This document shows positions 1 through 14,629 of a stretch of DNA of 64,000 nucleotides, one piece after another (position 1 is the stretch's first letter; each line of letters begins with the position of its first letter). Both the position numbers and the translations under genes were made by a program. The notes beneath the pieces are model-generated. The model did no database searches, had not been told where the DNA came from, and saw only the letters and a program-made list of their open reading frames with translations. The stretch comes from Synechococcus sp. UW140. GTDB taxonomy: Bacteria; Cyanobacteriota; Cyanobacteriia; PCC-6307; Cyanobiaceae. The stretch lies in assembly GCA_943369455.1 (NCBI GenBank), contig CALRND020000007.1, forward strand, positions 115,388-179,387, in the 5' to 3' direction.

Positions 1-300
1 CTGCGAGTGCTGCGGCGCGCACGAGCACCAGCGGGCCCTGGAGGTGGACCACAGCATCCCGAAAAACCAGGGCGGCTCCGACGCCATCAGCAACCTGCAG
101 GCCCTCTGCATCCGCTGCAACGCCGGTAAGCGCGACGGCTGTTTGCCTACGCAAGAGGGCGCACCGACTTCCGTGGTGTGCAGGCCAGCTACCTCCACCG
201 CGAGGCGGGCTGTGTGTTCTGCGTGCTGGAGGGCAGCGGCCGGGTGCTGCTGGAGAACGAGGGGCACAGCCTTGTGATCCCTCGGCGTCACGTGGTGGGC
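1..300 (+). pseudogene. HNH endonuclease / HIT hydrolase fusion remnant, copy 1 (5' end outside window, 3' part missing)
   Basis: Frame 2 reads CECCGAHEHQRALEVDH..NLQALCIRCNAGKRD (HNH motif). Frame 1 from GTG 178 reads HREAGCVFC..GHSLVIPRRH (N-terminal half of a HIT domain). Similarity to copy 2 (1330-1620) stops at about 300, where an antisense PIN gene begins. Confidence 0.6.
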
Positions 301-309
301 GCGATGGGC

Positions 310-726
310 TCAGCTCTCCAGGTAACGCTCCACCGTGTTGGTGGTCCAGGTTGCGATGCCGATGCCGAAGAAGTCCTGATCCTCCGTCCAGATGGCGCAT
401 TCCAATTGCAACGCCAGCGCCAGGGCAGGCCAGTCATCCTTATCGCGGATCCTCGCCAAGGCCTCCTCCTTGGCCGACCCCAGCAGGCTGTTTTCCACAA
501 CCTGGACAATCAACAGCAGGCTGAGCAAAGCCTTAGCGCAGACCTCTTGATCGAGACCTCTCTTCCTGGCGAGATCAGTCACGTAGGCGGTCGCCTCGGC
601 CACGTTGGCTTCAGCGACAAAGAAGTCCACCTGATCGGCGTAATGGGCGATGAGCGCACGCACCCGAAGGCCGAGACAGCCGCGAATGAGGATGTTCGCG
701 TCCAGGACCATGCGCTTGCGCTCCAC
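310..726 (-). CDS. PIN-domain ribonuclease toxin (VapC-like)
   Basis: 138-aa ORF. MVLDANILIR N-terminus with conserved acidic positions (D9, E39, D116/D118 region) typical of PIN. Sits 2 nt downstream of a small antitoxin-like ORF. Confidence 0.75.
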   Translation of the reverse strand: MERKRMVLDANILIRGCLGLRVRALIAHYADQVDFFVAEANVAEATAYVTDLARKRGLDQEVCAKALLSLLLIVQVVENSLLGSAKEEALARIRDKDDWPALALALQLECAIWTEDQDFFGIGIATWTTNTVERYLES

Positions 727-728
727 CC

Positions 729-998
729 TCAGGCCGACGGCTGCTCAGGGCGGCCTTTCCGCCAGGCCTTGAAGTCGGCACTGAGCTCGTTTTCGCTCAA
801 ACCGAGACGCTCCAGTTCAGCCTGCATCAGCCGGCCAGCCTCCAACACCTTCTCCCGATCACTCAGGTTGCCTTGCTGGGGCAAGGGCACGTAGAGGCCA
901 ATGGTGCGGCCATGGCGGGTCACCTCAATCGGCGTGGACGATTCCAGATGGGAGGCCAGCCGGGACCTGAGTTCACGGATGCCAATACGGGTCGCCAC
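729..998 (-). CDS. Type II antitoxin (Phd/YefM-like N-terminus) paired with the PIN toxin
   Basis: GTG at 998 preceded by AGGAGGAAGG. VATRIGIRELRSRLASHLESSTPIEVTRHGRTIGLYVPL. The longer 151-aa ORF upstream of this start is Pro/Gly/Ala-rich and unlikely to be coding. Confidence 0.6.
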   Translation of the reverse strand: MATRIGIRELRSRLASHLESSTPIEVTRHGRTIGLYVPLPQQGNLSDREKVLEAGRLMQAELERLGLSENELSADFKAWRKGRPEQPSA

Positions 999-1060
999 GC
1001 CTTCCTCCTGCCAAATGTGTACACATCCTAGGGCTGGCTGGGGAAGTCGGGCGGCGATAG

Positions 1061-1886
1061 CGGTGGCGGGTATGGACTGGGGCGGCACAGCCACACCAGG
1101 AGCCGGGTTGGCTGGAGCCCCCAGGCGCCCACGCCAGAAGGGATCCCAGCCGGGTCGCCCTCCTGTCGGGCCGCCCAACACCAAACCTGGCCCGGTCGCC
1201 CGGAAGCCGCCAGCGCCTCGATGCCTTCCGCGAGCAGCGCGGCGAAGAGGTGTTTGCCCACCGCAGCCGCCACCGCAGCCCGGTCAGTGGCTCGGTGAAC
1301 TACAGGGTTCACCGATGCGCCCAAGGCCGCTGCGAATGCTGCGGTGCACACGAGCATCAACGGGCCCTGGAGGTGGACCACATCGTCCCGAAAAACCAGG
1401 GTGGCTCCAACGCCATCACCAACCTGCAGGCGCTCTGCTTCCGCTGCAACGCCGGCAAGCGCGACGGCTGTTTGCCTACGCAAGAGGGCGCACCGACTTC
1501 CGCGGTGTGCAGGCCAGCGACGGCCACCGCGAAGCGGGCTCTGTGTTCTGCGCGCTGGAGGGCAGCGGCCGGGTGCAGCTGGAGAACGAGGGGACAGCCT
1601 GGTGATCCCGCGTCGTCATGGGGCCGACGGGCTGGAGGCTGCACCAGCCGGAGTGGAACGCCGTGGTGGAGCTGCTGAAGCTGCGGCGGGAGCAGCTCAG
1701 TGCCCAGGACGCATCGATCAGCGGCTGGGCTGGTTTGCTCAACGCAAGAGGGGGCTGAACTCAGGTGAGGCGGCGGGGCAGGCGGTGTTTCATGCGCACT
1801 GGCATCTGATTCCAAGGCGGGTGGGGGATTGTGAGGAGCCGCGGGGTGGGGTGCGGGGGGTGATTGCGGAGCATCGGAGCTATTGA
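1061..1886 (+). pseudogene. HNH endonuclease / HIT hydrolase fusion, copy 2, multiply frameshifted
   Basis: HNH part (..VNYRVHRCAQGRCECCGAHEHQRALEVDHIVPKNQGGSNAITNLQALCFRCNAGKRD) is in one frame. HREAGSVFCALEGSGRV is in a second frame. SLVIPRRH / EWNAVVELLKLRREQLSAQDASISGW / AAGQAVFHAHWHLIPRR (histidine triad at 1791-1805) are split over two further frames. Confidence 0.65.
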
Positions 1887-1916
1887 GATGTGCTCTATAG
1901 GCCAGCATCCAAGAGG

Positions 1917-2789
1917 TCAGATAACGGTTGCCATATAGCTAGAGGGAGAAAGCCGGCATGATTCCGAGAAGGCGCCAGAAAGGGTGAAAAGCCGAGGCTT
2001 AATGTTGAATCCAAACAAACGGTAGAGATAATAGCGAGATGTTTCTGACTCCGACACTGCAAGCTCGTTTCTGGATACGAAGAACGGAGTTTCTCGCCCA
2101 TATTTTGTTGTTTTTACTTCAATAAGTCTATCGGCGCCAGTCTCCTCATACGAGAGAATGTCAAAGCCGGCCCCGTCGCCTCGCGTTTGCGATGTGTGCT
2201 CGACTTTCTCGGCTAGCCTTTCTTTGCCAAGGTTGATCAGCCTTGCTCGCTCAAAGTTCAAGACAAAGAGCTCACCAGCATTACCAAGCGAGCGATTACG
2301 CGCTTCTCTCTCCAAGTAGTTGACTGAGATACATGCCCGAGTCGCCTGAAGGCTTCCTCTACTAGGTTCCTTGTCTCGGGGCTGCATGGCTGGAGGTGTG
2401 GTGAGCACTCCCAAAATATCTTCAACTTCCGGCACCACGATCGGCCTGTCAGCGTCTGCGGCCGCGACATTCAGGAGCTGGCTATCAGATACAAGTCTCT
2501 CGGAAACAACGTCATGCAGCAGGCCTTGATAATTGGATCGAGGCTTGTAACCAGTAATATAAGGGAATCCTAGGTCAATCAGTACAGCACTGATATTCGC
2601 ATGCTTGAACTCAACGGACTGCTCCGAACGACCTGAGAGGCGCTTAATCAGCGCGCGCCGGTGAGCTGCTTTATTGTAAGGAACCCCGGAGAGTTCAGCA
2701 GCAAGCATGGCAAAGTAGTCTGCCACGGTTGCTGCGACTTCCTCTCTTGACCAGTCAGTAGCCATTTCTCGAGGCGCGTTGGATACCAT
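1917..2789 (-). CDS. DUF3883-type (NO VEIN C-terminal, restriction-endonuclease-like fold) protein
   Basis: 290-aa ORF in visibly AT-richer DNA. C-terminal GDGAGFDILSYEETGADRLIEVKTTKYGRETPFFVSRNELAVSE..YYLYRLF matches the DUF3883 signature as I remember it. The N-terminal EFKHANISAVLIDLGFPYITGYKP domain is common in HNH/DUF3883 proteins. Confidence 0.7.
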   Translation of the reverse strand: MVSNAPREMATDWSREEVAATVADYFAMLAAELSGVPYNKAAHRRALIKRLSGRSEQSVEFKHANISAVLIDLGFPYITGYKPRSNYQGLLHDVVSERLVSDSQLLNVAAADADRPIVVPEVEDILGVLTTPPAMQPRDKEPSRGSLQATRACISVNYLEREARNRSLGNAGELFVLNFERARLINLGKERLAEKVEHTSQTRGDGAGFDILSYEETGADRLIEVKTTKYGRETPFFVSRNELAVSESETSRYYLYRLFGFNIKPRLFTLSGAFSESCRLSPSSYMATVI

Positions 2790-2844
2790 CTTTCCCGCTT
2801 GTTATAGGCCGGATTGATGCGCACTGGCACTTAGCTCACCCAGC

Positions 2845-3120
2845 TTGGCCCTGGTTATGGGAGCACCTAGGAACCATCACCGCGAAGCAGGCTGTGCGTT
2901 CTGCGCGCAGGAGGGCAGCGGCCGGGTGCTGCTAGAGAAGGAGCTGGCGCTGTGCATCTCCGACGCCTATCCCGTGAGCGAGGGGCACAGCCTGGTGATC
3001 CCACGGCTGCATCAATCTGCCAGGCCGTACAGCTCAATACGCCGACGTGGTGAAGGTGACGTCAGCATGGTTGGCCAAAGGGGTGGAACGGATGCTCTTG
3101 TCCGTTCCACCGGTGGATGA
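2845..3120 (+). pseudogene. HIT-domain N-terminal fragment, copy 3 (homology about 2872-3010, then unrelated read-through)
   Basis: HHREAGCAFCAQEGSGRVLLEKELALCISDAYPVSEGHSLVIPRLH. No histidine triad follows. Retains a 39-nt segment (ELALCISDAYPVS) that copies 1 and 2 lack. Confidence 0.6.
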
Positions 3121-3910
3121 GGTCAAGACGTTGGCCTGGCCTCCCCATCGGTTAAGGGACGAGAGGTGACTGGAGCAGAACACCAGCACCCGGAAAAGGG
3201 TTGGCTACAGCCACTGCATGCACACGCCGCAAGGTATCCCAGCAGGGGCGATGGCCTGCCGGACTGGCAGTTGACCACGAGCGCCATCGCAGCCGGGTCA
3301 ATCCAGCAGCCTGCCACTCAGGTTTTGTGAATGAAACTGCTAGTCAGATATCCAGATCCTCGTTGATAAGGCGACTTTTAATGCGCTGACCCTTGGCTAG
3401 GATCAACTCCCAGAAAAAAGCCAAGAATCTCCTGGCCTGCGTGAACAAGGATGTGCATAGTTGGTCTTGTAAACGATAGGCGATTGTTAGATTTTACCTG
3501 GGAATGTGGCATGGAAAGCGAAGAGATCGCCGCTCTCAGCAAAGACAACCGACAGACATGGAATTAAATCAAGACATCGGAATGCCTTCAACTGGGTAGC
3601 GGGCCTAATTCAGATTTTGACATTTTCTTAACAGTTAGCCAGGCAGAATGGTGTCCTTCACGGCCTAGTGAAACCGCCCCATTGAACTCCAGGTGCTCGT
3701 TCTTGCATGAGCCCCAACGAAAGACGAAAGGGCAATGCCTAAATTGTATGCATGAGAAGAATCGACAGGATTAAAGTAGATATCCATATATCCATGTCAG
3801 CACTGCTTGACATTGACATGCTAGCCATCAAACTAGATCATCTATCAAAGCACAGCAATTAATCGCGCACGCCGGCCCAAACCAGAGCGAAGCCGCCGTC
3901 CACCAATAGT

Positions 3911-6900
3911 TCACTTATGGAGTTCAATATCAAAACAAACTGTCTCCCCAACACCCTTCGAAAAACTTTCATGATTAAACTTCCTTGGCTCAACATACCA
4001 TACTTCTGAAACACGGGTTGCTGCGGCAAGAGCTGCAAAGGCAACGGCATGAATCTTAGATCCCGTGAGGCCAACTTCAACATTGGCTCCACTTCGAAAG
4101 TAAAGATCACAATAGATCTTCTCGATTTCTTCCAGTGTCTTTTTAAGATCGTTTGATCCTACTTGAATCAAACCAACATTAGCTTCGGCAGCACTTGCCG
4201 CGAGTTCAGCGGCAAACCAAGCTATGCGGCGGCGAGGCGAATCCTTGGGAGGAACAAGTATGCGAGTTGCGTCACTTGACCGAGCATCTAGCAGATGTAA
4301 CAGCCTATCATTCTTAGGAGATGCTGAAGCAATAAGCGCACGCCATCGCTCTGGACTTGCAGCACTTGAATGAACGCTGAAGTGTCTGTAAGGCCCAACC
4401 TCGCCAGTCAATATGTCATCAAGTGAAGCGAGTACATCATTTGATAATAAATTTCCCTCGAGGACCCCCCGATCAACGAGCTCTTGGTTACTTGGAAAGT
4501 ACTCCATTGCAGAGGTATGGACAACTCCAACACGCCGAGTGCTGACAAGGGCATTCATAATCGAGACGAAGATATATGGCTTTGAAAGTCCAGAGGTGTC
4601 TACAATTATAGACTCGCCCTTGATATTGGCCTGAACATCATCGACGCTACCGACAACTATCAGTTCAAGGTTTAAGCTTGATACATACTTTAGAATATCT
4701 GCGCCCTGATTAGTGTCATACTGCAAGAGAATTACCCTTTTAGGAGTAACTGTAGCCAAAAGTCTCTCCGCCGAAGCCTTGGCTCTCTCTTCGAAGCCAA
4801 GAGCCAAAAGCACAGTATCGACATCACGCCCTGCCCATGATTCGAGCACTCCATGGTTGATACTAATTCCAAGAGATGGCACGCATAAACCATCCGCAAT
4901 CAACACGCTTGAGCTAAGATCATTAACTTTTTCGATTATACTTAGTTGCCTGGTTTGGACACGGTTTACTGATTTCGAGATCTTAGTATTCTTGCCATTT
5001 TGCTTTACTAAAGCAGGCTTAGACACCTCTCCTTCCTTAGAACTGTTTGCATTGGCGTCTGATACACTTCCAGAATTAGTCGCCCGACGCGCCTCACTTT
5101 CAATTAATATATTCTTGGCATTCTCTGGATGCTCTAACCACTCTCTGAGCGTGTTTCCAGACAACTCGAATCGATCACGGTCAGAAAGCCCTATAAAGCT
5201 AGCAAGTCCCAGGGTCTTTCTATAAGAAAGCTTGAACTGTAGGACAGGATCATCGTCACGTGTCTTGGTTCTTGGCACTCCACCATCGTAAACAAAGACA
5301 CCAGTATCAAGAAGGTCAAGAATCATACGATATATCTTATCAAAGTCATGCCCAGCATCAACGCGCACGTACAACTTCGTGTATTGTCGCAGTCGCACTT
5401 GGTTTGCAGATAGTTTTAGTAGCTCACCAGCCGCTTGCGCAAAAGCTAGAGCTAGCCCCTTTTTGTGCTGATCACGCCTATTCAGATTATGCAATAAGTG
5501 TGCTGAATGCTCAAGAAAACAGTCAGTTTGTCTCTCATCAGAAACGGGGAGACTGCAACTGTCTCCATCGACTTGCTGAAGAATCTTTTCATAGAGCCTT
5601 AGAACATCGCCGATATCGCCTACGCAGACTGCTTGCAATGCCCGTAGCCCTCTATAGACACGTTTGCGCTCTCTTGAGGTAGCAGAAGAATTGGCAATTT
5701 CTCTGGCAATTACTTCTAGTTCTACGTCACCAAGAACTTCTCTTGGCTCAGCCTTATAAAGGGGATTGCGCCCACTTAGTTTTTGGCCCTTTCTCCGGAG
5801 AATCTCCTCTACAAACTTCATCTTCTGTTGAGTTGAACTCTTCCTCAGAAGACCATAGACTTCGTTTCCGAGATCGAATTCTTCGTAATCACGGTTAGGG
5901 TCAGCAGGGGCTTCGCCACCAGGGGACAGGAGAACACGGTGAAGCGCCTGTGCTTCAGTCGTAATGCGAAAGGCGCAATGGGCATGCTGAAAAAGGAGCT
6001 TTGAAATGACTTCCCGGACAGTATCCTCACTTAGATATCTAGTTGAGACATCATCCAATAGATAAAGAATGTACTTTTGATTGAAAGCCGGTGCCGCTGC
6101 CCTCAACACATCCGCAAGATAACTAAACGCATCTGCGGGCGCCATCTTTAGCCTATAATCCGAGGTTTCATCGGCAAGCTGGAACTGAAGGTCAATCAGA
6201 AAATCGTCAAACGCATGCTCGCCCGAACCTGGAATTCTCTCGAGCGGAATATCTAGTGGCTTCAGTGCATCTCTTAAAAGCATATCAATGCTATCCAATA
6301 AGCCGCCTGATTCTATGGAGCGTAAATGTCGGAGAACCTGTATGCCGTCGCGAAGGTATGCAACATACAGCCTCTCGAAAGGCGCACTGATAGTCGATGC
6401 ATTATCTTGTGGATTGAGTAACTTTTGGCAGGACGAATAAATACCAATAAAATCGTCACTCTTATATCCTGCGGTCATATCATCCGGCGTTGTGGCACGT
6501 GCATGAAAATGCAAGGCACGCAAAAGAATCGTTTTACCACAGCCTCGCATTCCTGTTATTACTTGAGGGCCACGGCCTGACGTCTTTGCCATCCACCTAC
6601 CCTCAGGGTCGAACCATAGGTCAGGCACATGCCAAGACTCAAGAGTTTGAGCGTTATAGCCATCTCCAAATCGTTGCAATTGAAGTGGTACACGCCAAGG
6701 TTCATCGGCTGCATTAACCGCTGCTTCAATAGCAGCTCGTGCTTCATCGCGTGTCATCATTCGCTGTGAACCCGCAGGAGGAGCAAGATGCTCAGCAAGC
6801 CCGCGCAGAGCACTCGCCAATCGATAATCAATATCACTAGAATCTTGGAGCGCCTTGGCAAGAGAAAATAGGTGCTTAGCGATTTGATGCTGGTCACCAA

Positions 6901-7576
6901 GACGATTGGAATCGGAATCGCTTTTACTTGCATCAAGAACTGAACCTAGATCAATCGCCACCGCACGCGTAGTTTCATCAATAGCACTTGATCTATAGGA
7001 TTCTCTCGCAAGACTTTCGATTAGGATATTGCCATCATGAAGATCATTATGGAAGCTTTTGTTCTCGGTAAAATAGTGGAAGATCTCAAATAGGTCGGCT
7101 CCAATCTGAGCCGCCATGCGTGATGTAAGCTTTCGTACTCCGCCTTGCCCTTTAATGAGCTGACCTAATGTAGGGCCTTCTACATTTTTAAGCACCGCGA
7201 CGTGGCATCGAAGTACTGAGTCCCCAAAAGAAACATCTGAATCAAATTTGTCTGTTATGTCAGCTACTAATGTCGAGCCCTCTCCAAGTCTTGCATGCTC
7301 TCTGCACTCTTCATTCCAATCCTTCGCGAAGTATTCGTAGACTTGAGTTGGAACAACTTTGAGGACAACTACTCTGCCAAGCGCCAACTGCTCGGCTCGG
7401 TATACAACACTGTAGAAGCCGCGTGAAACTGCATGCTTTATCTTGTAATTCTCAATCTGACTAGGTTTGTCATGCAATGGCAGCTCATAGGGGCGACCGC
7501 AGGAAGGACAACATTCATTGGGCGTTCTTTCAGAGTAATCCTGAGAAGGACACCAAAAGCAACATAGACTAGGCAT
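3911..7576 (-). CDS. Large multidomain protein: CxxC..CxxC zinc ribbon + protein-kinase-like domain + P-loop NTPase + C-terminal tandem Rossmann-like module
   Basis: Start taken at ATG 7576 (MPSLCCFWCP), which overlaps the upstream stop. Motifs: CCFWCP..CCPSCG (7499-7564); VVLKV Lys; HNDLHDGN catalytic loop (7028-7051); DLG (6944-6952); Walker A GMRGCGKT (6530-6553); Walker B ILYLLDD (6050-6070). Confidence 0.85.
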   Translation of the reverse strand: MPSLCCFWCPSQDYSERTPNECCPSCGRPYELPLHDKPSQIENYKIKHAVSRGFYSVVYRAEQLALGRVVVLKVVPTQVYEYFAKDWNEECREHARLGEGSTLVADITDKFDSDVSFGDSVLRCHVAVLKNVEGPTLGQLIKGQGGVRKLTSRMAAQIGADLFEIFHYFTENKSFHNDLHDGNILIESLARESYRSSAIDETTRAVAIDLGSVLDASKSDSDSNRLGDQHQIAKHLFSLAKALQDSSDIDYRLASALRGLAEHLAPPAGSQRMMTRDEARAAIEAAVNAADEPWRVPLQLQRFGDGYNAQTLESWHVPDLWFDPEGRWMAKTSGRGPQVITGMRGCGKTILLRALHFHARATTPDDMTAGYKSDDFIGIYSSCQKLLNPQDNASTISAPFERLYVAYLRDGIQVLRHLRSIESGGLLDSIDMLLRDALKPLDIPLERIPGSGEHAFDDFLIDLQFQLADETSDYRLKMAPADAFSYLADVLRAAAPAFNQKYILYLLDDVSTRYLSEDTVREVISKLLFQHAHCAFRITTEAQALHRVLLSPGGEAPADPNRDYEEFDLGNEVYGLLRKSSTQQKMKFVEEILRRKGQKLSGRNPLYKAEPREVLGDVELEVIAREIANSSATSRERKRVYRGLRALQAVCVGDIGDVLRLYEKILQQVDGDSCSLPVSDERQTDCFLEHSAHLLHNLNRRDQHKKGLALAFAQAAGELLKLSANQVRLRQYTKLYVRVDAGHDFDKIYRMILDLLDTGVFVYDGGVPRTKTRDDDPVLQFKLSYRKTLGLASFIGLSDRDRFELSGNTLREWLEHPENAKNILIESEARRATNSGSVSDANANSSKEGEVSKPALVKQNGKNTKISKSVNRVQTRQLSIIEKVNDLSSSVLIADGLCVPSLGISINHGVLESWAGRDVDTVLLALGFEERAKASAERLLATVTPKRVILLQYDTNQGADILKYVSSLNLELIVVGSVDDVQANIKGESIIVDTSGLSKPYIFVSIMNALVSTRRVGVVHTSAMEYFPSNQELVDRGVLEGNLLSNDVLASLDDILTGEVGPYRHFSVHSSAASPERWRALIASASPKNDRLLHLLDARSSDATRILVPPKDSPRRRIAWFAAELAASAAEANVGLIQVGSNDLKKTLEEIEKIYCDLYFRSGANVEVGLTGSKIHAVAFAALAAATRVSEVWYVEPRKFNHESFSKGVGETVCFDIELHK

Positions 7577-8822
7577 TAATGACCTCCATTTGTTGGTCCA
7601 AATCAACGGATACCAAGATACTACTAGAATTATCTGCAAGCGTGCTGAAGGCTGATTTAACTCTAGAGATCACATCAACAATGTCAAGGCACGTATCGCA
7701 GCGCAGAGTTGCAATTGGTTGATCTGCAACTACAGCCTCTCCAGGCATGACGAGAAGTTTTACTCCTGCAGGGTCTTTGAAACAATTATGGCCGTCCACA
7801 GTCTGCATAGATACAAGAACATCGCGTAAGCGGGCCAGATTAATCTGAAAGAAACCCGAAGACTCGGCTTTCAAGGTAAAGCGTGGGGCAGAGAGAATCT
7901 GTTTAGTGCGGTCAATAAATACATGGATTGACGTACCTTGAGCTATAAGGTGACTTTCAAATACTCTACGTGCATCGCAAATCATATTTGGAGATAGGCG
8001 CTCTTGTTCATGACGTTCGAGATCGGGACTGTCAGACATGCAAGCTGCCATACAATAGCAATCAATGGAATGATTTTCAAGCCAGATCTCGTCATCATCA
8101 TAAGGCAATAGATTTAACACTTTAGCGAGTGCAACAAGGCTTTCACCACGGCCGATCCATGGCTGTAAAGGAGCCATTTTCACGCCGAGGAACGCAACTG
8201 CAGAAATGCCAAGCAGACGAGCCGCCTCACAAAACATCGTGGCATTCTTTCGTGCCTCCGCTCTTGATTTGCCGAAGTTACCGTGGGAACCTATTCTAAT
8301 ATCTAAACCCACACATTTAACACCTACAGCGAGCTTTTTTGCCAGTAAGCTTGCTGCAGCAAGAACTGGAATTGCCACAGCATCATGTCTACGTCGACAC
8401 ATAAATAGAGACGCATCAAGTGGTGCAAAGCGGCTATCAGCGAGAAAATGAGCGTACCCGCAGTCTTCTATTACCTTGTGTACTTCATCAGAGGCCAACT
8501 GGACCTTGTATCCCTCAAGTGTGCCGAGACTGTCAATCGCACCTGCCGGTCTGCCAGGGACAGCTAGTTTTGCAACTTGAAATCCCATGACTCTCAGCCA
8601 CAGTGGACCCAACAAAGTCGAAAGCGAAGCTGGTCCACCTGTAGATGCGATGTCTGCAACGTTGTAGTGATCACCCCATTGTAGTTTCTCTCCGCTTGCT
8701 GCCAAGTGCTTCGCTAGACGTGCAACTTCAAATGCATCTAACGGGCAGTTGCGTGCCACTTCAATCAACTTTAAGAACTGTTCTTCATCACATTTAGTAG
8801 GTAGCGGAAGAAAGCTTGTCAT
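7569..8822 (-). CDS. Divergent thymidine phosphorylase / glycosyltransferase family 3 (PRT-like) protein
   Basis: 417 aa. DIASTGGPAS (8634-8654) corresponds to the DKHSTGGVGD loop and VPGRPAGAIDSLGTLEGY to SGRGLGHTGGTLDKLE of E. coli DeoA. C-terminal LLVMPGEAVVADQPIATL resembles the PYNP C-terminal domain. Confidence 0.75.
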   Translation of the reverse strand: MTSFLPLPTKCDEEQFLKLIEVARNCPLDAFEVARLAKHLAASGEKLQWGDHYNVADIASTGGPASLSTLLGPLWLRVMGFQVAKLAVPGRPAGAIDSLGTLEGYKVQLASDEVHKVIEDCGYAHFLADSRFAPLDASLFMCRRRHDAVAIPVLAAASLLAKKLAVGVKCVGLDIRIGSHGNFGKSRAEARKNATMFCEAARLLGISAVAFLGVKMAPLQPWIGRGESLVALAKVLNLLPYDDDEIWLENHSIDCYCMAACMSDSPDLERHEQERLSPNMICDARRVFESHLIAQGTSIHVFIDRTKQILSAPRFTLKAESSGFFQINLARLRDVLVSMQTVDGHNCFKDPAGVKLLVMPGEAVVADQPIATLRCDTCLDIVDVISRVKSAFSTLADNSSSILVSVDLDQQMEVINA

Positions 8823-8834
8823 GCTGGTAGTGTT

Positions 8835-9917
8835 TTAATCATTACTTGCAAGCCACGAGTCTACGTCTACTGCTATCTCCTCCTGAAATGATTTCCGAAT
8901 CTCAGCGGCATGAGCCATGATAAATGGGGGAGGAAGAGCATTGCCAATCATTAATGCTATAGCAGTCTTGTTGTTTACAGTAGGGAAGATGTAACCCTTA
9001 GGGAATCCCTGAAGTAAAGATGCTTCCCGCATAGTGACTGCCCGGTTCTGGTCGGGATGCAAGAAACGACCCTTAGAAGGATTGAAGCAGCCACTTGTAA
9101 TTGTAGGAGCCTGTGATCCCCACGACATTCGGCCATATATATCATAGAACCCATCACATCTCCGATGGCATTCAAGTTGTTCATCTTTTGAGAGACTAGA
9201 GCGGCTTCCACCATCATGTGGAATGCGGCCAATCAGATCAAGGATCCTCTTGCTTCGTCGTTCTGGAATGTCATGCACGGGATCACCGCTTGCGCCGGGA
9301 GTAGGCAGCATCCCAATAGCGTCCCGTACTGTATACTTTTGAGGGGAAGGTGGTGCAAATCGAATACTCTTCCCCAATCCAGCAATATAGATTAGCCTAT
9401 GGCGACGTTGCGGAACTCCATAGTCAGCTGCATTCAGAACCCTGTGATGCCCATGGTACCCAAATCGCTTCATCGATCTACAGAATTGCGAAAAGCGATG
9501 ATCATTTTGAAGGCCGGGAACATTCTCAAGCATCACCGCCCTAGGACGCAGCTCCTTTGCAAATCTCAGGAATTCGAAGAGAAGGTCGTTGCGTGCATCA
9601 TCTACGCATAGAGGACGATTTAATGCTCTCAGTTTTGAGAATCCTTGGCATGGCGGACACCCAGCCAATAGGTCGAGTTTTCCTTTTCGTAGTCCAATTT
9701 GCTTCTTAAGGCTACTAACCCCAAGCTTCTTGATGTCTGTGTGAAAAACTCTTACATCTGAGTGATTAGCGCTATATGTTTCTACTGAAGATTCATCAAC
9801 TTCAACAGCAGCAAGAACGCGAAATCCTGCTTGCTTCAGCCCCAATGTCAACCCCCCGCAACCGCTGAAAAGGTCGACCGCAGCAAAGTGGTTGTCAATG
9901 GCTGCCTGATCCTGCAT
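8835..9917 (-). CDS. DNA (cytosine-5)-methyltransferase
   Basis: Motif I FSGCGG (9852-9869), motif IV PPCQGFS (9636-9656), ENVPGL, QRRHRLIYIAG, GNALPPPF. Start set at ATG 9917 (GGAGG 13 nt upstream), 15 aa before motif I. The ORF is open up to TTG 10055. Confidence 0.9.
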   Translation of the reverse strand: MQDQAAIDNHFAAVDLFSGCGGLTLGLKQAGFRVLAAVEVDESSVETYSANHSDVRVFHTDIKKLGVSSLKKQIGLRKGKLDLLAGCPPCQGFSKLRALNRPLCVDDARNDLLFEFLRFAKELRPRAVMLENVPGLQNDHRFSQFCRSMKRFGYHGHHRVLNAADYGVPQRRHRLIYIAGLGKSIRFAPPSPQKYTVRDAIGMLPTPGASGDPVHDIPERRSKRILDLIGRIPHDGGSRSSLSKDEQLECHRRCDGFYDIYGRMSWGSQAPTITSGCFNPSKGRFLHPDQNRAVTMREASLLQGFPKGYIFPTVNNKTAIALMIGNALPPPFIMAHAAEIRKSFQEEIAVDVDSWLASND

Positions 9918-10260
9918 CCTTGAAGTGGTTCCTCCGTTGCCACTATACGCTCTGATCTTTGATTTTTGTCTGATCTGTCTGCATTCATCTCGCGACTGCT
10001 TGCAGGGACACAACATGCCTACGCAATCCCTTCCTTCGCCATTTGCGAAAAGCAAACCCTTAAGCAGCCGTCAGCCATTATCCAAGCCCACGATCTCGTC
10101 GTGCACATGGAGCCGACCCGCAACAGTCAAAACAAACCCTTCTGGCATGTCTGGGAGTAAGGGTCTGAATCAATACAACTTGAGTAATTGATGCCTTGAT
10201 CAGACTCAGAAATATCTGAATGGGTTTAGCCTCTATGGCAATACCAGCAAGATTAAGCAA

Positions 10261-12847
10261 GCTCCGCCCAGCGGATCGACCTGCTCTGCGCCTTCATCAA
10301 GTTCAGCGGCCTGCGCCTGCTCCAGCCGGCCCTCAGCGAGTTCCTGCAGGCCGAGCCCCGCCGCCCGTTGCGGGTGCTCACCACCGTCTACCTGGGCGCC
10401 ACCGACCGCCGCGCCCTCGATTGGCTGGTGGCTCACGGCGCCAAGGTGCGCGTCAGCTACGACACCCGCCGCACCCGCCTGCACGCCAAAGCCTGGCTGT
10501 TCCATCGGCCGGGCCTCTCGGGCGCCACCCTTTCCTCCACCGCCTACATCGGCTCCTCCAACCTCTCCACCGCCGCCCTGCACGACGGCCTGGAGTGGAA
10601 CGTGCGCCTCTCCGCCCACGACAACGAGGGCATCCTGGCCAAGTTCCAGGCCGCCTTTGAGAGCTACTGGGAGGAGGGCGAGTTCGAGCCCTACCGGGCC
10701 AGCGAACTGGAGCAGCGCCGCTTTGATCGGGCCGTGCGCGAGGAGTCGGCGGGGGACGCGGCGTTGGACGCCACCCCGCTCAGCTTCTTCGACATCCGCC
10801 CCTACCCCTACCAGCAGGAGATCCTCGACAAGCTGTCGGCCGAGCGCAGCCTCCATGGCCGCTGGCGCAACCTGGTGGTGGCCGCCACCGGCACGGGCAA
10901 AACCGTGGTCGCCGCCCTCGATTACGCCCGCCAGGCCGGTCCTGGTCACCCGAGCCTGCTGTTCGTGGCCCACCGGCGCGAGATCCTGCAGCAGAGCCTC
11001 GCCACCTTCCGCCAGGTGCTGCGCGATGGCTCCTTCGGCGAGCTGCTGGTGGATGGCCAGCGCCCCAGCCAGTGGCGCCACGTGTTCGCCTCGGTGCAGT
11101 CGCTCGCTGGGCTGGATCCGGCCGACCTGGCGCCAGACACGTTCGCCGTGGTGATCGTCGATGAGTTCCACCACGCCGCCGCCGCCAGGCCTCACCGCCA
11201 CCCCCGAGCGCACCGGCGGCGAGGACATCCTCCATTGGTTCGATGGCCGCATCGCAGCCGAGCTGCGCCTCTGGAGCGCCTTGGAGCAGGGCCTGCTCTG
11301 CCCCTTCCACTACTTCGGCCTCCACGACGGCACCGACCTCTCGCAGATCGAGTGGCGCCGCAACGCCTACGCCACAGAAGCCCTGTCCAACCTCTACACC
11401 GCCGACGACGCCCGCCTGCGCCTGATCCTGCGCGAACTGGCAGACAAGGTCACCAACCTGGATTCGATGCGGGCCCTGGGCTTCTGCGTGAGCGTGGAGC
11501 ACGCCCATTGGATGGCCCGCAAGTTCGTGGCCGCCGGCCTGCGCGCCGCTGCCCTAGATGCGTCCAGCCCCCGGGACGAGCGCGCCGAGCAGATCCGCCG
11601 CCTGCGCTCCGGCGAGCTGCAGATCCTGTCTGCGGTGGATCTGTTCAACGAAGGCCTCGACATCCCTGAGATCGACACGGTGCTGTTCCTGCGGCCCACC
11701 GAGAGCGCAATCGTGTTCCTGCACCAGCTTCGACCTGCGCTACCGCGCCCTGCTCGGTGGCACGCGCGACCAGCTGGAGCAGCAGATCAACGACGGGTTT
11801 CCCTTCCTGCCGGCCGGCTGCAGCCTGCAGCTCGATCGGGTGTCGAGCGAGCGGGTGCTTGCCAATCTGCGCGAGTCGCTGCCCACGCGCCGGCCCCAGC
11901 TGCTCGCCGAAGCTCACCGCCTCGGGCGCTGTTCGCTGGCGGGGTTGCTGGAGGGGCTCGGGATGGAGCTGGGGGAGTTTTACAAGGTGGCGGGGTCGTG
12001 GGCGTTGTTGCAGCGGGAGTTGGGGTGGGTGGCCTCGGTGGAACCCTCCGAGGATGAGTGGCGACTGGGACGGGGGATCGCCGGGGGGCTGCTGCATCTG
12101 GACGACCCCGAGCGGTTGCACTGGCTGGCGGGCCAACTGCAGCGGCCCATCGCGCCCGATCCGGCGGACTTCGATCCCGCCACCGAGCGCCGCTGGCGCA
12201 TGCTGATGGCCCAGCTCTGGGGCAGCGGCCGGCAGCACGTGCCCCTGGCCGAGGCCCTCGTCCGGCTCTGGGCCGCCGCCGACCTCCGCGCCGAACTGGT
12301 GGAGCTGTTCGCGCTGCTGCTCGAGCGCACCGACCACCTGGTGGCGCCGCTCGACTGGGACCGCGCCGATCCGCCCCCCATCCCCCTCAAACTCCACGGC
12401 CGCTACTCCCGCGCCGAGGTGTTCGCCGCGTTTGGGCTGCTGAACGAGGCCCGCCCTTTCCCCGGCCGGGAGGGGGTGTTCTTTGACGAAGCCACCCAGT
12501 GCGACGTCTTCTTCATCACCCTCAAGAAGTCCGAGCGCCTGTTCTCCCCCACCACCCGCTACAACGATGTCGCCATCTCCCCATGGGAGTTCCACTGGGA
12601 GAGCCAGAGCCTCACCCGGGAAGCGTCCGCCACCGGGCAGAGATACATCCACCACGTTGAGCGCGGCAGCCGGGTGATGCTGTTCGTGCGGGAGGAAAGC
12701 AAGCGCGGCGGGGTGACGCTGCCGTTTCTGGGCCTGGGGTTCGCGGATTACGTGAGCCATGAGGGCGAGCGGCCGATGGCGATTCGCTGGCGGTTGCACA
12801 GGGCGATACCGGCGGCGTTTGTGCCGGAGTTGGCGTTGGCGGTTTGA
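10261..12847 (+). pseudogene. PLD-nuclease / SF2 helicase / DUF3427 protein, 5'-truncated with two internal frame-breaking deletions
   Basis: RLHAKAWLF..GSSNLS (PLD HxK), VVAATGTGKT, VDEFHH, then a frame change to GLTATPERTGGEDILHWFDGRI. ..LFLRPTESAIVFLHQL, then a second frame change to FDLRYRALLGG..DUF3427-like C-terminus ending LALAV. The reading frame is open right up to the island edge, with no start codon. Confidence 0.75.
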
Positions 12848-12861
12848 GGGCGTGGAGCTGA

Positions 12862-13302
12862 TCAAGCCTTATCCCATTGGCCTTCTGGTTCCTGCAGGCG
12901 CCTCATGGCCTCCCTGGCAAGAACAATCGCAATCCCTTGAAAGTTGCCCAAGGCCAAGAGGTCGTCATCGCCAGAGACGATCAGATCGGCGAGGCCACCT
13001 ACGGCCGCAGCCAAGACCTGATCGTCGTCGGGATCCCTACTGACGGGACCTCCCAGATCAGCAGGTTCCACGAGCTCAACCAGGGCGGCATAGCCATCAA
13101 ACAGATCGGCAATCCTCACACCAAGCCGAAAAATGGGCTCTCTGAACTTCGGTCGCTGCAGCACGCCTTCCAACTCGGCGAGGAGAGGAACGGTACTGAT
13201 CAGCTGAACCCGCCCAACCACGGCCGCATCCATGAGCTGCCCGGGAACTCCCTGCCAGATCAGGGCAGAGAGAGCCGTGTTGGTGTCAAGAACCAGCCGC
13301 AA
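12862..13302 (-). CDS. PIN-domain toxin
   Basis: 146 aa. MRLVLDTNTALSALIW..DPDDDQVLAAAVGGLADLIVSGDDDLL. Overlaps the upstream antitoxin ORF by 17 nt. Confidence 0.75.
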   Translation of the reverse strand: MRLVLDTNTALSALIWQGVPGQLMDAAVVGRVQLISTVPLLAELEGVLQRPKFREPIFRLGVRIADLFDGYAALVELVEPADLGGPVSRDPDDDQVLAAAVGGLADLIVSGDDDLLALGNFQGIAIVLAREAMRRLQEPEGQWDKA

Positions 13303-13570
13303 GTCGTTGCCCCTTGCGGTAAGCGCTGATCTCCTCGTTGATCTCTCGCCGGGTCAGAACCTCTGGCGGGTCAGCAGCAAGAGCAGCCCTGGCGTCTTGC
13401 AGACGGACAATGCGGTCTGAGGCCAGCTTGTCCCGCAGCAGGCGCTCGATCGCTTCTGGCGCCAGCAGGCCGGCTCCGCTGGCTTCCGCCGCCAGCGCAT
13501 CAGGGAGGGTGATCTCGATGGTGGTCAAGCGTGCACCCCAACCATGCTTGCCTCTGAGGGTAGCCGGCAT
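13286..13570 (-). CDS. Antitoxin partner of the PIN toxin (start uncertain: ATG 13570 or TTG 13528)
   Basis: ..LTTIEITLPDALAAEASGAGLLAPEAIERLLRDKL..EINEEISAYRKGQ. Small, overlaps the toxin start. The N-terminal part of the 152-aa ORF is antisense to helicase copy B. Confidence 0.55.
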   Translation of the reverse strand: MPATLRGKHGWGARLTTIEITLPDALAAEASGAGLLAPEAIERLLRDKLASDRIVRLQDARAALAADPPEVLTRREINEEISAYRKGQRLAAGS

Positions 13571-13595
13571 CTCCGCCCAGAGGTACAGCCCACAG

Positions 13596-14201
13596 GCCAC
13601 GCCGCGAGCAGATCCGCCGCCTGCAGGCCAGCACCTGCCCCTGGCCGAGGCCCTCGTCGGGCTCTGGGCCGCTGCCGACCTCCGCGCCGAGCTGGTGGGC
13701 CCGCTTGACTGGGGCCGCGCCGATCCGCCCCCCATCCCCCTCAAACTTCACGGCCGCTACTCCCGCGCCGAGGTGTTCGCCGCCTTTGGGCTGTTGAACG
13801 AGGCCCGCCCCTTCCCCGGCCGGGAGGGCGTGTTTTTTGATGAGGCCACCCAGTGCGACGTCTTCTTCATCACCCTCAAGAAGTCGGAGCGACTGTTCTC
13901 CCCCACCACCCGCTACAACGACGTCGCCATCTCCCCGTGGGAGTTCCACTGGGAGAGCCAGAGCCTCACCCGCGAAGCGTCCACCACTGGGCAGCGATAC
14001 ATCCACCACCGAGAGCGCGGCAGCCGGGTGATGCTGTTCGTGCGGGAGGAGAACAGGCGTGGTGGGGTGACGCTGCCATTTCTGTGTCTGGGGTTCGCGG
14101 ATTACGTCAGCCACGAGGGCGAGCGGCCGATGGCGATTCGCTGGCGGTTGCACCGGGCGATTCCGGCGGCGTTCGTGCCGGAGTTGGCGTTGGCGGTTTG
14201 A
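13596..14201 (+). pseudogene. Second copy (B) of the helicase 3' end (DUF3427 region), internally deleted
   Basis: About 40 mismatches over about 560 hand-aligned nt versus 12232-12847, plus a 45-nt gap (ELFALLLERTDHLVA missing). At 13596-13625 a short EQIRRL-coding piece (compare 11585-11605) is fused directly to the QH(V/L)PLAEAL region. Confidence 0.7.
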
Positions 14202-14223
14202 GGGGGGCTGAAGCCGCTAGCCT

Positions 14224-14603: not shown

Positions 14604-14629
14604 GGCCCCTACGCAACGGCGGAACCTGG

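What the first reader, a model, noticed from the sequence alone, without database searches (positions are those of the whole stretch)
3914..4822. C-terminal about 300 aa look like two tandem Rossmann-like repeats, each carrying a CARF-type loop
Seen in the sequence: two segments share the same pattern of a hydrophobic strand, a small-residue loop ending in Lys, then a helix.
- SIIVDTSGLSKPYIFVSIMNAL (motif at 4580-4603), preceded by TVLLALGFEE and VILLQYD.
- NVEVGLTGSKIHAVAFAALAAA (motif at 4055-4072), preceded by ALIASASPKN and TRILVPP and followed by VWYVEP.

Established knowledge: CARF domains carry a [DN]x[ST]xxx[RK] / hDhTGGTK loop after a central strand, and SAVED domains are fused CARF-like pairs.

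Inference: the module could be a pseudo-dimeric ligand (nucleotide) sensor controlling the kinase/NTPase. If so, the ligand source is unknown, because no cyclase, CD-NTase or TIR gene is in the operon. The adjacent phosphoribosyltransferase-fold enzyme is the only candidate producer.
Basis: inference. Interest (0 to 1): 0.65.

Follow-up and report, generated by a model that had tools for sequence, protein, structure and literature searches.

The report
Tandem CARF sensor on kinase-ATPase protein
The last ~305 residues of a 1,221-1,242-aa bacterial defence-island protein really are two back-to-back CARF-type nucleotide-sensor domains, but the family's CARF tail was catalogued in 2014 and is in PADLOC, so the open question is which small molecule it senses.

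Summary
Both quoted segments are present on the minus strand, and both loops are almost invariant across distant homologues (D1014/K1020; L1191-T-G-x-K1195). A high-confidence AlphaFold2 model (pLDDT 92.7) shows two consecutive beta-alpha domains, D1 (aa 938-1094) and D2 (aa 1096-1242). Each carries its conserved loop directly after strand 4.

The best PDB match is Can1, a single-chain double-CARF protein (E 5.9e-7, TMq 0.51). D1 and D2 each hit CARF profiles separately. SAVED, SLOG and generic Rossmann readings are not supported. No sequence similarity between the two halves is detectable, so "duplication" is structural only.

The family is already known. PADLOC model "CARF6--CARF_STK_AAA" matches full length (E = 0). 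Makarova et al. 2014 described the architecture of Zn-ribbon, kinase and AAA+ with CARF and wHTH.

What I add:
- The CARF part is double.
- It can exist as a separate gene.
- The protein sits in a conserved operon with a C5 DNA methyltransferase and a divergent pyrimidine-nucleoside-phosphorylase-like gene. That gene is replaced elsewhere by TIR, putAbiC/TM or ThyX-like genes.
- No cyclase is conserved nearby.

The ligand and its source remain unknown.

The parts
3914..7576 (-). Gene for the Zn-ribbon / Ser-Thr kinase / ORC-Cdc6-like AAA+ / tandem-CARF protein. The likely start is M22 (ATG 7576-7574). The mechanical ORF runs 3911-7639 from a TTG.
   Evidence: ORF list. PADLOC PDLC01925 CARF6--CARF_STK_AAA aligns aa 22-1239 to profile 1-1185/1187, E = 0, 1137 bits. 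The upstream gene's stop codon is 7569-7571, 2 nt from the M22 codon.
7496..7564 (-). Zn ribbon (CCFWC...CCPSC, aa 26-48).
   Evidence: Read directly from the sequence. C6, C23 and C26 of alignment A4 are at least 90% conserved. Matches the family description in PMC4012209.
6740..7468 (-). Ser/Thr protein kinase domain (about aa 58-300), apparently catalytically competent.
   Evidence: Pfam Pkinase aa 65-209 (sub-threshold). PADLOC PD-T4-6 5.6e-11. In 36 diverse homologues K94, E111 and D230 (DLG) are invariant, and H197-N-D199-L-H and N204 are at least 90% conserved (numbering checked).
5060..6661 (-). ORC/Cdc6-like AAA+ ATPase with C-terminal helical/wHTH part (about aa 327-860). Walker A GMRGCGKT lies at 6530-6553.
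   Evidence: Pfam PF24389 ORC-CDC6-like 3.9e-27. Walker A including R365 within the P-loop, Walker B LLDD (D529, D530) and R534 are invariant.
4829..5059 (-). Poorly conserved, Ser/Asn/Lys-rich linker (aa 861-937).
   Evidence: Gappy, unconserved columns in A1 and A4.
4358..4828 (-). CARF domain D1 (aa 938-1094): b1 VLLAL + GFEER loop, b4 IIVD + TSGLSKP loop, b5 VGVVHTS, helical insert, GE.GPY, b6.
   Evidence: AF2 model residues 13-162 with high pLDDT. PADLOC CARF6 CARF_CARF_CARF models (best 4.8e-7) and CARF_m9--CARF_TM in 8/37 members. G948 and E950 are 100% and F949 98-100% conserved.
4577..4600 (-). D1 post-b4 loop DTSGLSKP. D1014-x-S1016-xxx-K1020 fits the CARF [DN]x[ST]xxx[RK] motif exactly.
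3914..4354 (-). CARF domain D2 (aa 1096-1242): b1' RALIAS + SPKNDR loop, b4' NVEVG + LTGSK loop, b5' EVWYVE, b6' TVCFDIE.
   Evidence: AF2 model residues 171-310. PADLOC CARF3--CARF PDLC01847 hits 26/37 members, best 7.3e-10. The window sequence scores 2.2e-6 over residues 10-134 against profile 11-133/239. Csx1, CARF_2M, CARF1 and CARF8 models also hit. Pfam HFX_2341_N hits 5/25 members sub-threshold and maps to D2 in the window sequence; Csa3_N hits 1/25, with the half not determined.
4055..4072 (-). D2 post-b4' loop GLTGSK. It is one residue shorter than the canonical CARF motif.
   Evidence: L1191 95-100%, T1192 92-96%, G1193 100% and K1195 100% conserved.
7569..8822 (-). Upstream operon partner: a divergent pyrimidine-nucleoside/thymidine-phosphorylase-like protein (417 aa).
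   Evidence: PDB 1brw PyNP E = 4.7e-19 over aa 32-391. NCBIfam thymidine phosphorylase 9e-29, below the cut-off. Same strand and directly upstream in 60/80 related loci. Family-specific conserved motifs STGGP, GRPAGGID, SLLxKK, GNFG.
8835..10055 (-). First gene of the operon: C5 cytosine DNA methyltransferase.
   Evidence: Pfam DNA_methylase 2e-60, TIGR00675 dcm 1e-47. A homologue lies within +-8 kb in 68 of 80 related loci, most often just upstream on the same strand. There is a 12-nt gap to the TP-like gene.

Best explanation
Residues 938-1242 are two consecutive CARF-fold domains in one chain. Together they form an intramolecular, asymmetric pseudo-dimer of the kind seen in the single-chain double-CARF nuclease Can1.

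The four most conserved elements of the module are the loops after b1 and b4 of each domain:
- GFExR and DxTGLxKP in D1.
- SxKxxRL and E.GLTGSK in D2.

I infer that these loops line one shared pocket, and that the pocket binds a nucleotide-derived ligand that need not be symmetric. Occupancy of the pocket would gate the ORC/Cdc6-type AAA+ switch and the Ser/Thr kinase in the same polypeptide. This resembles the way the RtcR CARF domain gates its AAA+ module. The output would pass through phosphorylation and/or through the variable partner encoded just upstream. That partner is a pyrimidine-nucleoside-phosphorylase-like enzyme here, and TIR, putAbiC/TM or ThyX-like genes elsewhere.

The whole is a methyltransferase-linked defence-island system, and this protein is a new member of the catalogued CARF6 'CARF_STK_AAA' family.

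Shown here: the fold, the CARF profile matches for each half, loop conservation, intact kinase and ATPase catalytic residues, the conserved operon, and the separability of the module.

Inferred: ligand binding, the shared pocket, the gating, and the defence function.
For: Structure: AF2 with a diverse 25-sequence alignment gives pLDDT 92.7 and pTM 0.92. The model has two b-a-b-a-b-a-b-a-b-b units, each with its motif loop after b4.

Foldseek against the PDB:
- Top hit Can1 6sce_A, E 5.9e-7, TMq 0.51 over 442 columns.
- Next, a 761-aa Csm6 (9w3u/9w3v), TMq 0.40-0.43 over 524-552 aligned columns.
- Matches to CARF proteins over only about 170-210 columns (TtCsm6, Cam1) give TMq about 0.32.
- Generic Rossmann methyltransferases give TMq at most 0.29.
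- The jump to 0.51 implies both domains superpose on Can1 at once.

Sequence profiles:
- Full-length PADLOC CARF6--CARF_STK_AAA, E = 0.
- D2 alone hits CARF3--CARF in 26/37 members, best 7e-10.
- D1 alone hits CARF6 and CARF_m9 models.
- Stand-alone ~300-aa 'CARF_CARF_CARF' profiles are collinear with D1+D2.

Conservation:
- Loop residues are 90-100% conserved over very diverse homologues.
- The kinase residues K94, E111 and D230, Walker A and Walker B are invariant, and the catalytic loop (H197-N-D199-L-H, N204) is at least 90% conserved.

Modularity: the module is a separate 345-361-aa gene immediately after an 858-897-aa kinase/ORC-Cdc6-like gene in L081-L084.

Family size and context:
- The profile search found 340 cluster representatives at E <= 1e-3.
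- The genome scan found 127 loci across many phyla.
- PMC4012209 already assigned CARF to this architecture.
Against: - No ligand, binding assay or phage phenotype exists for any member.
- D1 and D2 show no detectable sequence similarity to each other.
- The D2 loop is one residue shorter than the canonical CARF motif, and the b1 loops are atypical.
- No PDB CARF protein is found by sequence search alone, and the Pfam CARF hits are sub-threshold.
- Foldseek E-values for the shorter CARF matches overlap those of generic Rossmann folds.
- No signal-producing cyclase is conserved nearby.
- The role of the strongly linked methyltransferase is unexplained by this model.
Confidence: 0.62

Rival explanations
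1. The upstream phosphorylase-like enzyme (or the ThyX-like or TIR genes that replace it) makes the ligand from a pyrimidine nucleoside or nucleotide. The tandem CARF senses that product, so the operon is a self-contained signalling pair.
For: - The TP-like gene is translationally coupled and present in 60/80 loci.
- It keeps the base-binding Arg/Ser/Lys of PyNP and has its own conserved active-site-like motifs. Its phosphate-site residues are changed, which suggests altered chemistry.
- A split variant has a ThyX-family gene in the same position. That is another pyrimidine-nucleotide enzyme.
- One locus has a TIR gene there. TIR enzymes are known signal producers in Thoeris (my own knowledge).
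- No other candidate producer is conserved.
Against: - In other loci the same slot holds putAbiC/TM or small TM proteins, or nothing at all (L002, L025, L026, L046, L052/53, L065). These cannot synthesise a nucleotide signal and are typical effectors.
- In the variants with a small TM protein (cluster c16) that protein lies elsewhere relative to the big gene: downstream in L049, L050 and L086, and upstream on the opposite strand in L077 and L080.
- No activity has been shown.
Confidence: 0.25
2. The ligand comes from outside the operon. It could be an infection-derived nucleotide species, such as RNA or DNA breakdown products, 2',3'-cyclic-phosphate ends as proposed for RtcR, or cyclic oligonucleotides made in trans. 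The upstream gene is then an interchangeable effector, for example one that depletes nucleotides.
For: - The pattern of partner swapping (phosphorylase-like / TIR / putAbiC-TM / small TM) is that of effector modules.
- Some loci have no partner at all.
- CARF controlling an AAA+ module has a precedent in RtcR (PMC4012209 section 7).
- The loci sit in defence islands.
Against: - No conserved cyclase or type III CRISPR lies nearby, so cOA in trans would need co-occurrence that I could not test.
- It does not explain the thematic link to pyrimidine enzymes (TP-like, ThyX) or to C5 methyltransferases.
Confidence: 0.35
3. The double CARF is not a small-molecule sensor. It would be a degenerate scaffold used for protein-protein contacts or oligomerisation, or a ring-nuclease-like enzyme.
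For: - Per its abstract, RtcR CARF binds the RtcA/RtcB proteins directly (PMC9650030).
- The b1 loops (GFExR, SxKxxR) differ from typical CARF motif I.
- E950, R952 and R1112 could in principle be catalytic.
Against: - The strongest conservation lies exactly in the four loops that form the ligand site in known CARF dimers.
- The canonical D-x-S/T-xxx-K motif is retained in D1.
Confidence: 0.12
4. The module is a SAVED domain, or a generic Rossmann / SLOG / USP-type nucleotide-binding enzyme domain, rather than CARF proper.
For: - SAVED is also a fusion of two CARF-like units (my own knowledge).
- Foldseek lists many methyltransferases, tandem USP and KCC C-terminal domains at E of 1e-3 to 1e-4.
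Against: - No SAVED, SLOG/LOG or USP profile reaches significance in Pfam or PADLOC. The best is Usp, E 0.09, in 2/25 members.
- These structural hits have TMq at most 0.29, against 0.51 for Can1.
- There is no GxGxxG loop after b1.
- No CD-NTase partner is present.
Confidence: 0.05

Closest known systems
CARF6 'CARF_STK_AAA' family (PADLOC PDLC01925; architecture described by Makarova et al. 2014, Front Genet 5:102, PMC4012209)
   Same: Full-length collinear match (aa 22-1239, E = 0). The architecture agrees: Zn ribbon, Ser/Thr kinase, AAA+ with an Arg inside the P-loop (GMRGCGKT), wHTH-containing ORC/Cdc6-like part, and C-terminal CARF.
   Different: None at family level; this is a new member, 57% identical to the nearest cluster representative. 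[quoted passage not shown] Here the CARF part is resolved into two distinct CARF domains. The conserved MTase/TP-like operon is not mentioned in the passages of that paper I retrieved (section 7, read via term searches). The 2020 CARF classification paper could not be read.
Can1 (Thermus thermophilus TTHB144, PDB 6sce), a single-chain double-CARF cA4-activated nuclease
   Same: Best structural match (E 5.9e-7, TMq 0.51). Two non-identical CARF domains in one polypeptide. In Can1 these form one pseudo-symmetric ligand site (my own knowledge).
   Different: In Can1 the two CARFs are separated by a nuclease-like domain, the effector is a PD-(D/E)XK nuclease, and it is associated with type III CRISPR. 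Here the CARFs are adjacent and C-terminal, they are fused to a kinase and an AAA+ ATPase, and there is no CRISPR link. Sequence identity is 10%.
RtcR (CARF + NtrC-type AAA+ + HTH)
   Same: A CARF domain fused to an AAA+ ATPase and a DNA-binding domain, outside CRISPR loci. It is a logical precedent for CARF gating an AAA+ switch. Relatives are associated with R-M systems (PMC4012209).
   Different: RtcR has a single N-terminal CARF that dimerises, a sigma54-activator AAA+ rather than ORC/Cdc6-like, and no kinase.
SAVED domains (CBASS Cap4/Cap5, CalpL)
   Same: The concept is the same: two fused CARF-like units forming one asymmetric nucleotide pocket.
   Different: No SAVED profile hit, no CD-NTase or Cas10 partner, and SAVED structures are absent from the top 50 Foldseek matches.
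Stand-alone CARF6 'CARF_CARF_CARF' proteins (~300-360 aa; PADLOC PDLC01910-01923)
   Same: Collinear with D1+D2. P0179 and P0180 are encoded right after split kinase/ORC-Cdc6-like genes.
   Different: They are separate polypeptides with only 23-24% identity. The partner genes differ (ThyX-like plus an N6/N4 MTase, or a 187-aa unknown protein, with Eco29kI-type R-M nearby).

Membership tests
CARF superfamily | Rossmann-like b-a core with six strands (b1-a1-b2-a2-b3-a3-b4-a4-b5...b6) | tested here: met
   The AF2 secondary-structure order shows this for both D1 (model residues 13-162) and D2 (171-310), at pLDDT 92.7. Strand order within the sheet could not be inspected because no coordinates were available.
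CARF superfamily | Conserved [DN]x[ST]xxx[RK] loop after b4 | tested here: met
   D1: D1014-T-S1016-G-L-S-K1020 is an exact fit, 90-100% conserved. D2: E1188-V-G-L-T1192-G-S-K1195 is one residue shorter, with K 100%, G 100% and T 92-96% conserved.
CARF superfamily | Conserved small/polar motif after b1 | tested here: inconclusive
   The loops are strongly conserved but atypical: GFExR in D1 and [SA]xKxxRL in D2.
CARF superfamily | Significant match to curated CARF sequence profiles | tested here: met
   PADLOC: the whole protein matches CARF6--CARF_STK_AAA at E = 0. D2 matches CARF3--CARF in 26/37 members, best 7.3e-10. D1 matches CARF6 models at 4.8e-7 and CARF_m9 at 4e-5. In Pfam only sub-threshold hits appear (HFX_2341_N, Csa3_N).
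CARF superfamily | Structural similarity to solved CARF domains | tested here: met
   The Foldseek PDB top hits are Can1, Csm6, SiRe_0806 and Cam1.
CARF superfamily | Dimer or pseudo-dimer forming a shared ligand pocket; binds cyclic or linear oligonucleotide | not testable with these tools
   There is only indirect support: TMq 0.51 to double-CARF Can1, against about 0.32 for the shorter CARF matches. No coordinates and no binding data.
CARF6 CARF_STK_AAA family | Zn ribbon + Ser/Thr kinase + AAA+ with Arg in the P-loop + wHTH + CARF, collinear full-length homology | tested here: met
   Description in PMC4012209.
SAVED | Match to SAVED profiles (Pfam PF18145 / PADLOC SAVED effectors) | tested here: not met
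   No SAVED family appears among the hits even at E <= 10 (Pfam) or E <= 1 (PADLOC).
SAVED | Genomic association with a CD-NTase or Cas10 cyclase | tested here: not met
   Among the neighbour clusters of 80 loci, only MTase (68), TP-like (60) and Vsr (29) recur. Of the rarer clusters (4-11 loci), the ten largest non-integrase ones plus c3, c16, c21, c44 and c383 were annotated, and none is a cyclase. The others were not annotated.
Can1/Card1 (CARF4, DUF1887) | CARF fused to a PD-(D/E)XK nuclease; DUF1887 profile | tested here: not met
   No nuclease domain is present in the protein. No Pfam DUF1887 hit. PADLOC CARF4--CARF_PDDEXK hits only 2/25 members (2.2e-5). The resemblance is in fold and arrangement only.
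Pyrimidine-nucleoside/thymidine phosphorylase (upstream gene) | Full-length homology with conserved base-binding and phosphate-binding residues | tested here: inconclusive
   Homology is clear (1brw 4.7e-19; NCBIfam 9e-29, but far below the equivalog cut-offs). The alignment keeps the Arg, Ser and Lys of the base site. It replaces the K-H before STGG and shortens the GHTGGT loop. My assignment of these residues to particular sites is from memory.

The most novel reading that the evidence does not exclude
The tandem CARF is the receptor of a previously unknown, non-cyclase second-messenger pathway. A pyrimidine-nucleotide enzyme in the operon (phosphorylase-like here, ThyX-like in a split variant) would convert a 5-methyl-pyrimidine nucleoside or nucleotide into the ligand. 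That substrate might be released from DNA marked by the operon's own C5 methyltransferase when host DNA is degraded during infection. The ligand would switch on the kinase/AAA+ module. This would be a CARF pathway independent of Cas10/CD-NTase, and it would explain the methyltransferase linkage without a nuclease.
Probability: 0.12. Interest if true: 0.8.

Novelty: new member of a known kind. Interest (0 to 1): 0.4.

Why it matters
CARF and SAVED sensors are known almost entirely as receivers of Cas10- or CD-NTase-made cyclic oligonucleotides. This family couples a single-chain double CARF to a kinase and an ORC/Cdc6-like ATPase. It was found in 127 loci among about 186,000 species genomes, across many phyla. 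It has no conserved cyclase but does have a conserved C5 methyltransferase and a pyrimidine-nucleoside-phosphorylase-like partner.

Identifying the ligand would show either a new source of CARF ligands or a new way for methylation-based self-marking to feed an abortive or kinase response. For this window itself the result is mainly an annotation. The gene is an uncharacterised member of a catalogued defence-associated family. A homologue on a Loktanella plasmid in RefSeq is labelled only 'hypothetical protein'.

Tried and rejected
1. Internal duplication by sequence. blastp of one half against the other gave E 0.065. hhalign with three different alignments gave probability about 0.4%. No detectable homology, so the repeat rests on fold only. 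D1 and D2 may be two different CARF lineages fused, since D1 matches CARF6/CARF_m9 models and D2 matches CARF3.

2. The first AF2 run, with 26 close homologues, left the second half below pLDDT 50. Its Foldseek search returned mainly generic methyltransferases, with Can1 at rank 34. I discarded this in favour of the diverse-alignment model.

3. A profile search of PDB sequences with the module found nothing relevant.

4. Foldseek against viral structures found only generic Rossmann methyltransferases.

5. The three word-indexed homologue searches found few sequences (13, 28 and 20). The exhaustive representative search was needed to see the family.

6. Literature. Makarova 2020 (PMC7498327) is not held. 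A search for 'CARF6' returned only plant ARF papers. Searches combining thymidine or nucleoside phosphorylase with defence, kinase or CARF terms found no description of this operon.

7. The NOV_C/PDC-S36 gene at 1917-2789 as part of the system. Rejected, because it co-occurs in only 1 of 80 loci.

8. SAVED, SLOG, USP and generic Rossmann readings. Rejected; see the rival explanations.
Full report
**Locus.** The finding lies at the 3' end of a 1,242-codon minus-strand ORF (3911-7639; probable start M22 at 7576). The ORF sits in a low-GC island (GC 0.45-0.50 from about 3,000 to 10,000) inside 0.63-0.71 GC flanks. Three minus-strand genes are tightly packed:
- A C5 cytosine DNA methyltransferase at 8835-10055 (Pfam 2e-60).
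- A 417-aa pyrimidine-nucleoside-phosphorylase-like gene at 7569-8822.
- The large gene itself.

The gaps are 12 nt and 2 nt. The large protein reads as:
- Zn ribbon (aa 26-48).
- Ser/Thr kinase (about aa 58-300).
- ORC/Cdc6-like AAA+ with a helical/wHTH part (about aa 327-860, Pfam PF24389 3.9e-27).
- A low-complexity linker.
- The C-terminal ~305 aa in question.

**Checking the observation.** On sequence alone the resemblance of the two segments is not significant:
- The core [ST]G.{1,2}K occurs twice, with 0.9 expected (P 0.22).
- blastp of one half against the other gives E 0.065, although in register with the motifs.
- Three profile-profile comparisons give probability about 0.4%.

The pattern is nevertheless real, because it is conserved and structural. 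The exhaustive profile search found 340 cluster representatives (139 at E <= 1e-30). About 64 of the 150 listed hits are ~1,200-1,250 aa with the module at the C-terminus, and the shorter ones look like fragments. Across 65 such representatives and 75 genome-derived sequences:
- D1014 is 98-100% conserved, S/T1016 about 97-100%, K1020 90-97%.
- L1191 is 95-100%, T1192 92-96%, G1193 and K1195 100%.

Other near-invariant elements are GFExR (aa 948-952), GE.GPY, [SA]xKxxRL (aa 1107-1113) and WYV.P.

**Structure.** A first AF2 run with 26 close homologues failed for the second half. With 25 diverse sequences the model reached pLDDT 92.7 and pTM 0.92. It shows two consecutive units with the same order of elements:
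- D1: b1 13-17, a1, b2, a2, b3, a3, b4 82-85, a4, b5 107-113, a helical insert, b6 156-162.
- D2: b1' 171-176, a1', b2', a2', b3', a3', b4' 257-261, a4', b5' 283-288, b6' 304-310.

Model residue 1 is aa 930. Both motif loops follow the fourth strand, and the GFExR and SxKxxR loops follow the first strand. These are the two positions that carry the conserved motifs in CARF domains (PMC4012209).

Foldseek against the PDB gave:
- Can1 (6sce_A) first, E 5.9e-7, TMq 0.51, 442 aligned columns. It is a single-chain double-CARF protein.
- A 761-aa Csm6 (9w3u/9w3v), TMq 0.40-0.43.
- SiRe_0806, TtCsm6 and Cam1 follow; the shorter CARF matches (TtCsm6, Cam1) have TMq about 0.32.
- Generic Rossmann methyltransferases, tandem USP and KCC C-terminal domains at TMq at most 0.29.

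A TMq of 0.51 for a 313-residue query cannot come from one ~150-residue domain. So both domains superpose on Can1's CARF pair simultaneously. This is an inference, since I had no coordinates. The viral library gave only generic methyltransferases.

**Sequence-profile evidence for CARF, domain by domain.**
- The whole protein matches PADLOC PDLC01925 'CARF6--CARF_STK_AAA' from end to end (E = 0, 1137 bits).
- D2 alone hits 'CARF3--CARF' in 26/37 diverse members (best 7.3e-10). The window sequence scores 2.2e-6 over nearly the whole domain. Csx1, CARF_2M, CARF1 and CARF8 models also hit.
- D1 alone hits several 'CARF6--CARF_CARF_CARF' models (best 4.8e-7) and 'CARF_m9--CARF_TM' in 8/37.
- The ~300-position CARF_CARF_CARF profiles are collinear with D1+D2.
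- Pfam gives only sub-threshold hits (HFX_2341_N, Csa3_N). It gives no SAVED, SLOG or DUF1887 hit.
- PDB sequences are not reached by HMM.

So each half is a CARF domain. The halves look like two different CARF lineages rather than a recent duplication.

**Prior knowledge.** Makarova et al. 2014 (PMC4012209, section 7) describe exactly this architecture. [quoted passage not shown] They also suggest the CARF acts in kinase-mediated signalling. The window protein has GMRGCGKT, with the Arg inside the P-loop. The PADLOC model name points to the 2020 CARF classification, which I could not read. The CARF assignment is therefore not new. That the CARF part is double is at most a refinement.

**Context in 80 related genomic loci.**
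- The family occurs in Verrucomicrobiota, Planctomycetota, Acidobacteriota, Proteobacteria, Actinobacteria, Bacteroidota, Firmicutes, Saccharibacteria and others.
- A TP-like gene lies directly upstream on the same strand in 60/80 loci.
- A C5 methyltransferase lies within +-8 kb in 68/80, usually first in the operon.
- Vsr occurs in 29 loci.
- In loci without the TP-like gene, the slot is filled by a TIR_2 protein (L039) or putAbiC proteins with TM helices (L052/53), or is empty.
- In the variants with a small TM protein (c16), that protein lies downstream of the big gene (L049, L050, L086) or upstream on the opposite strand (L077, L080).
- The methyltransferase sometimes has a genuine REase partner: NaeI in L050, L077, L080 and the Loktanella plasmid L086, and Eco29kI in L081.
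- None of the neighbour clusters I annotated is a cyclase, CD-NTase or Cas10.

**Gene fission.** Stand-alone 345-361-aa versions of the module (P0179, P0180) are encoded immediately after 858-897-aa kinase/ORC-Cdc6-like genes. In one case the operon begins with a ThyX-family gene and an N6/N4 methyltransferase. This shows that D1+D2 is one independent functional unit that works with the kinase-ATPase.

**The upstream enzyme.** It aligns over its length with Bacillus PyNP (1brw, E 4.7e-19). In that alignment:
- It keeps the Arg and the S..KK of the pyrimidine site.
- It replaces the Lys-His preceding STGG.
- It shortens the GHTGGT phosphate loop.

Its own family motifs (STGGP, GRPAGGID, SLLxKK, GNFG, QPxIGRGE) are conserved in 58 sequences. 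I conclude that it probably binds a pyrimidine nucleoside or nucleotide, but with altered chemistry. Which residues belong to which site is from my memory of TP/PyNP structures.

**Mechanism.** I commit to this reading: D1+D2 form an intramolecular asymmetric CARF pseudo-dimer, and its four conserved loops bind a nucleotide-derived ligand. Binding gates the AAA+ switch and the kinase. Both appear catalytically intact:
- K94, E111, D230, Walker A and Walker B are invariant.
- The HND199LH catalytic loop and N204 are at least 90% conserved.

Output passes through phosphorylation and/or the variable upstream partner. Fold, profile matches, conservation and operon structure are shown here. Binding, gating and the defence role are inferred.

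TIR, TM or putAbiC proteins in its place, and loci lacking any partner, favour effector. The recurrence of pyrimidine enzymes (TP-like, ThyX) and of C5 methyltransferases favours a pyrimidine-related signal. The role of the methyltransferase is unexplained.

**Verdict.**
- Observation: confirmed.
- Interpretation: partly supported. Tandem CARF, yes. SAVED, no. 'Only candidate producer' is doubtful.
- Novelty: low for the domain assignment, since this is a new member of a catalogued family.
- Interest: moderate, because the ligand and the logic of the methyltransferase / phosphorylase-like / kinase-CARF operon are undescribed in the literature I could search.

Noticed in passing
window 1917-2789 (-): A 290-aa NOV_C/DUF3883 protein matches PADLOC candidate system PDC-S36 full length (5e-111). 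It is a separate single-gene defence candidate next to the operon. It co-occurs with the family in only 1 of 80 loci (L044).
   Followed up: partly
window ~2000-10100: A low-GC island (0.45-0.54) sits in a 0.63-0.71 GC background and carries both defence candidates. No tRNA gene was found in 1-16000. No integrase was looked for.
   Followed up: partly
window 2845-3120 (+): By eye, this 91-aa ORF (…CAFCAQEGSGRVLLEKELALCISDAYPVSEGHSLVIPRLH…) looks like a truncated HIT-family gene remnant. It lies in the ~1.1-kb non-coding-looking gap between the two defence genes.
   Followed up: no
window 7569-8822 (-): The phosphorylase-like partner keeps the PyNP base-site residues. It has lost the Lys-His before STGG and part of the GHTGGT phosphate loop. 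The replacement motifs (STGGP, GRPAGGID, GNFG) are conserved family-wide, which suggests a changed reaction rather than decay.
   Followed up: partly
L081 4799-8574; L082; L083; L084 137-5888: Split versions of the system: an 858-897-aa kinase/ORC-Cdc6-like gene followed by a separate 345-361-aa double-CARF gene. L084 starts with a ThyX (Thy1) gene and an N6/N4 methyltransferase. L081 has a 187-aa unknown protein in the partner slot, with MTase + Vsr + an Eco29kI-like REase alongside.
   Followed up: partly
L039 (gene at -1296..-277 relative to the kinase gene); L052/L053 (-1256..-9): The slot occupied by the phosphorylase-like gene is taken by a TIR_2 protein (1.4e-09) or by a putAbiC protein with N-terminal TM helices (8.7e-16).
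   Followed up: partly
L086 (Loktanella salsilacus plasmid NZ_CP072995.1, 439558-445929): RefSeq annotates the family member as 'hypothetical protein'. There it is followed by a small TM protein, a DNA cytosine methyltransferase and a NaeI-family restriction endonuclease.
   Followed up: partly
window 8835-10055 (-): The mechanical ORF of the methyltransferase starts at a TTG about 57 codons before the Pfam domain begins. The real start is probably a downstream Met, for example the MQDQAAIDNHF… codon. No Vsr gene accompanies it in this window, unlike in 29 of 80 related loci.
   Followed up: no
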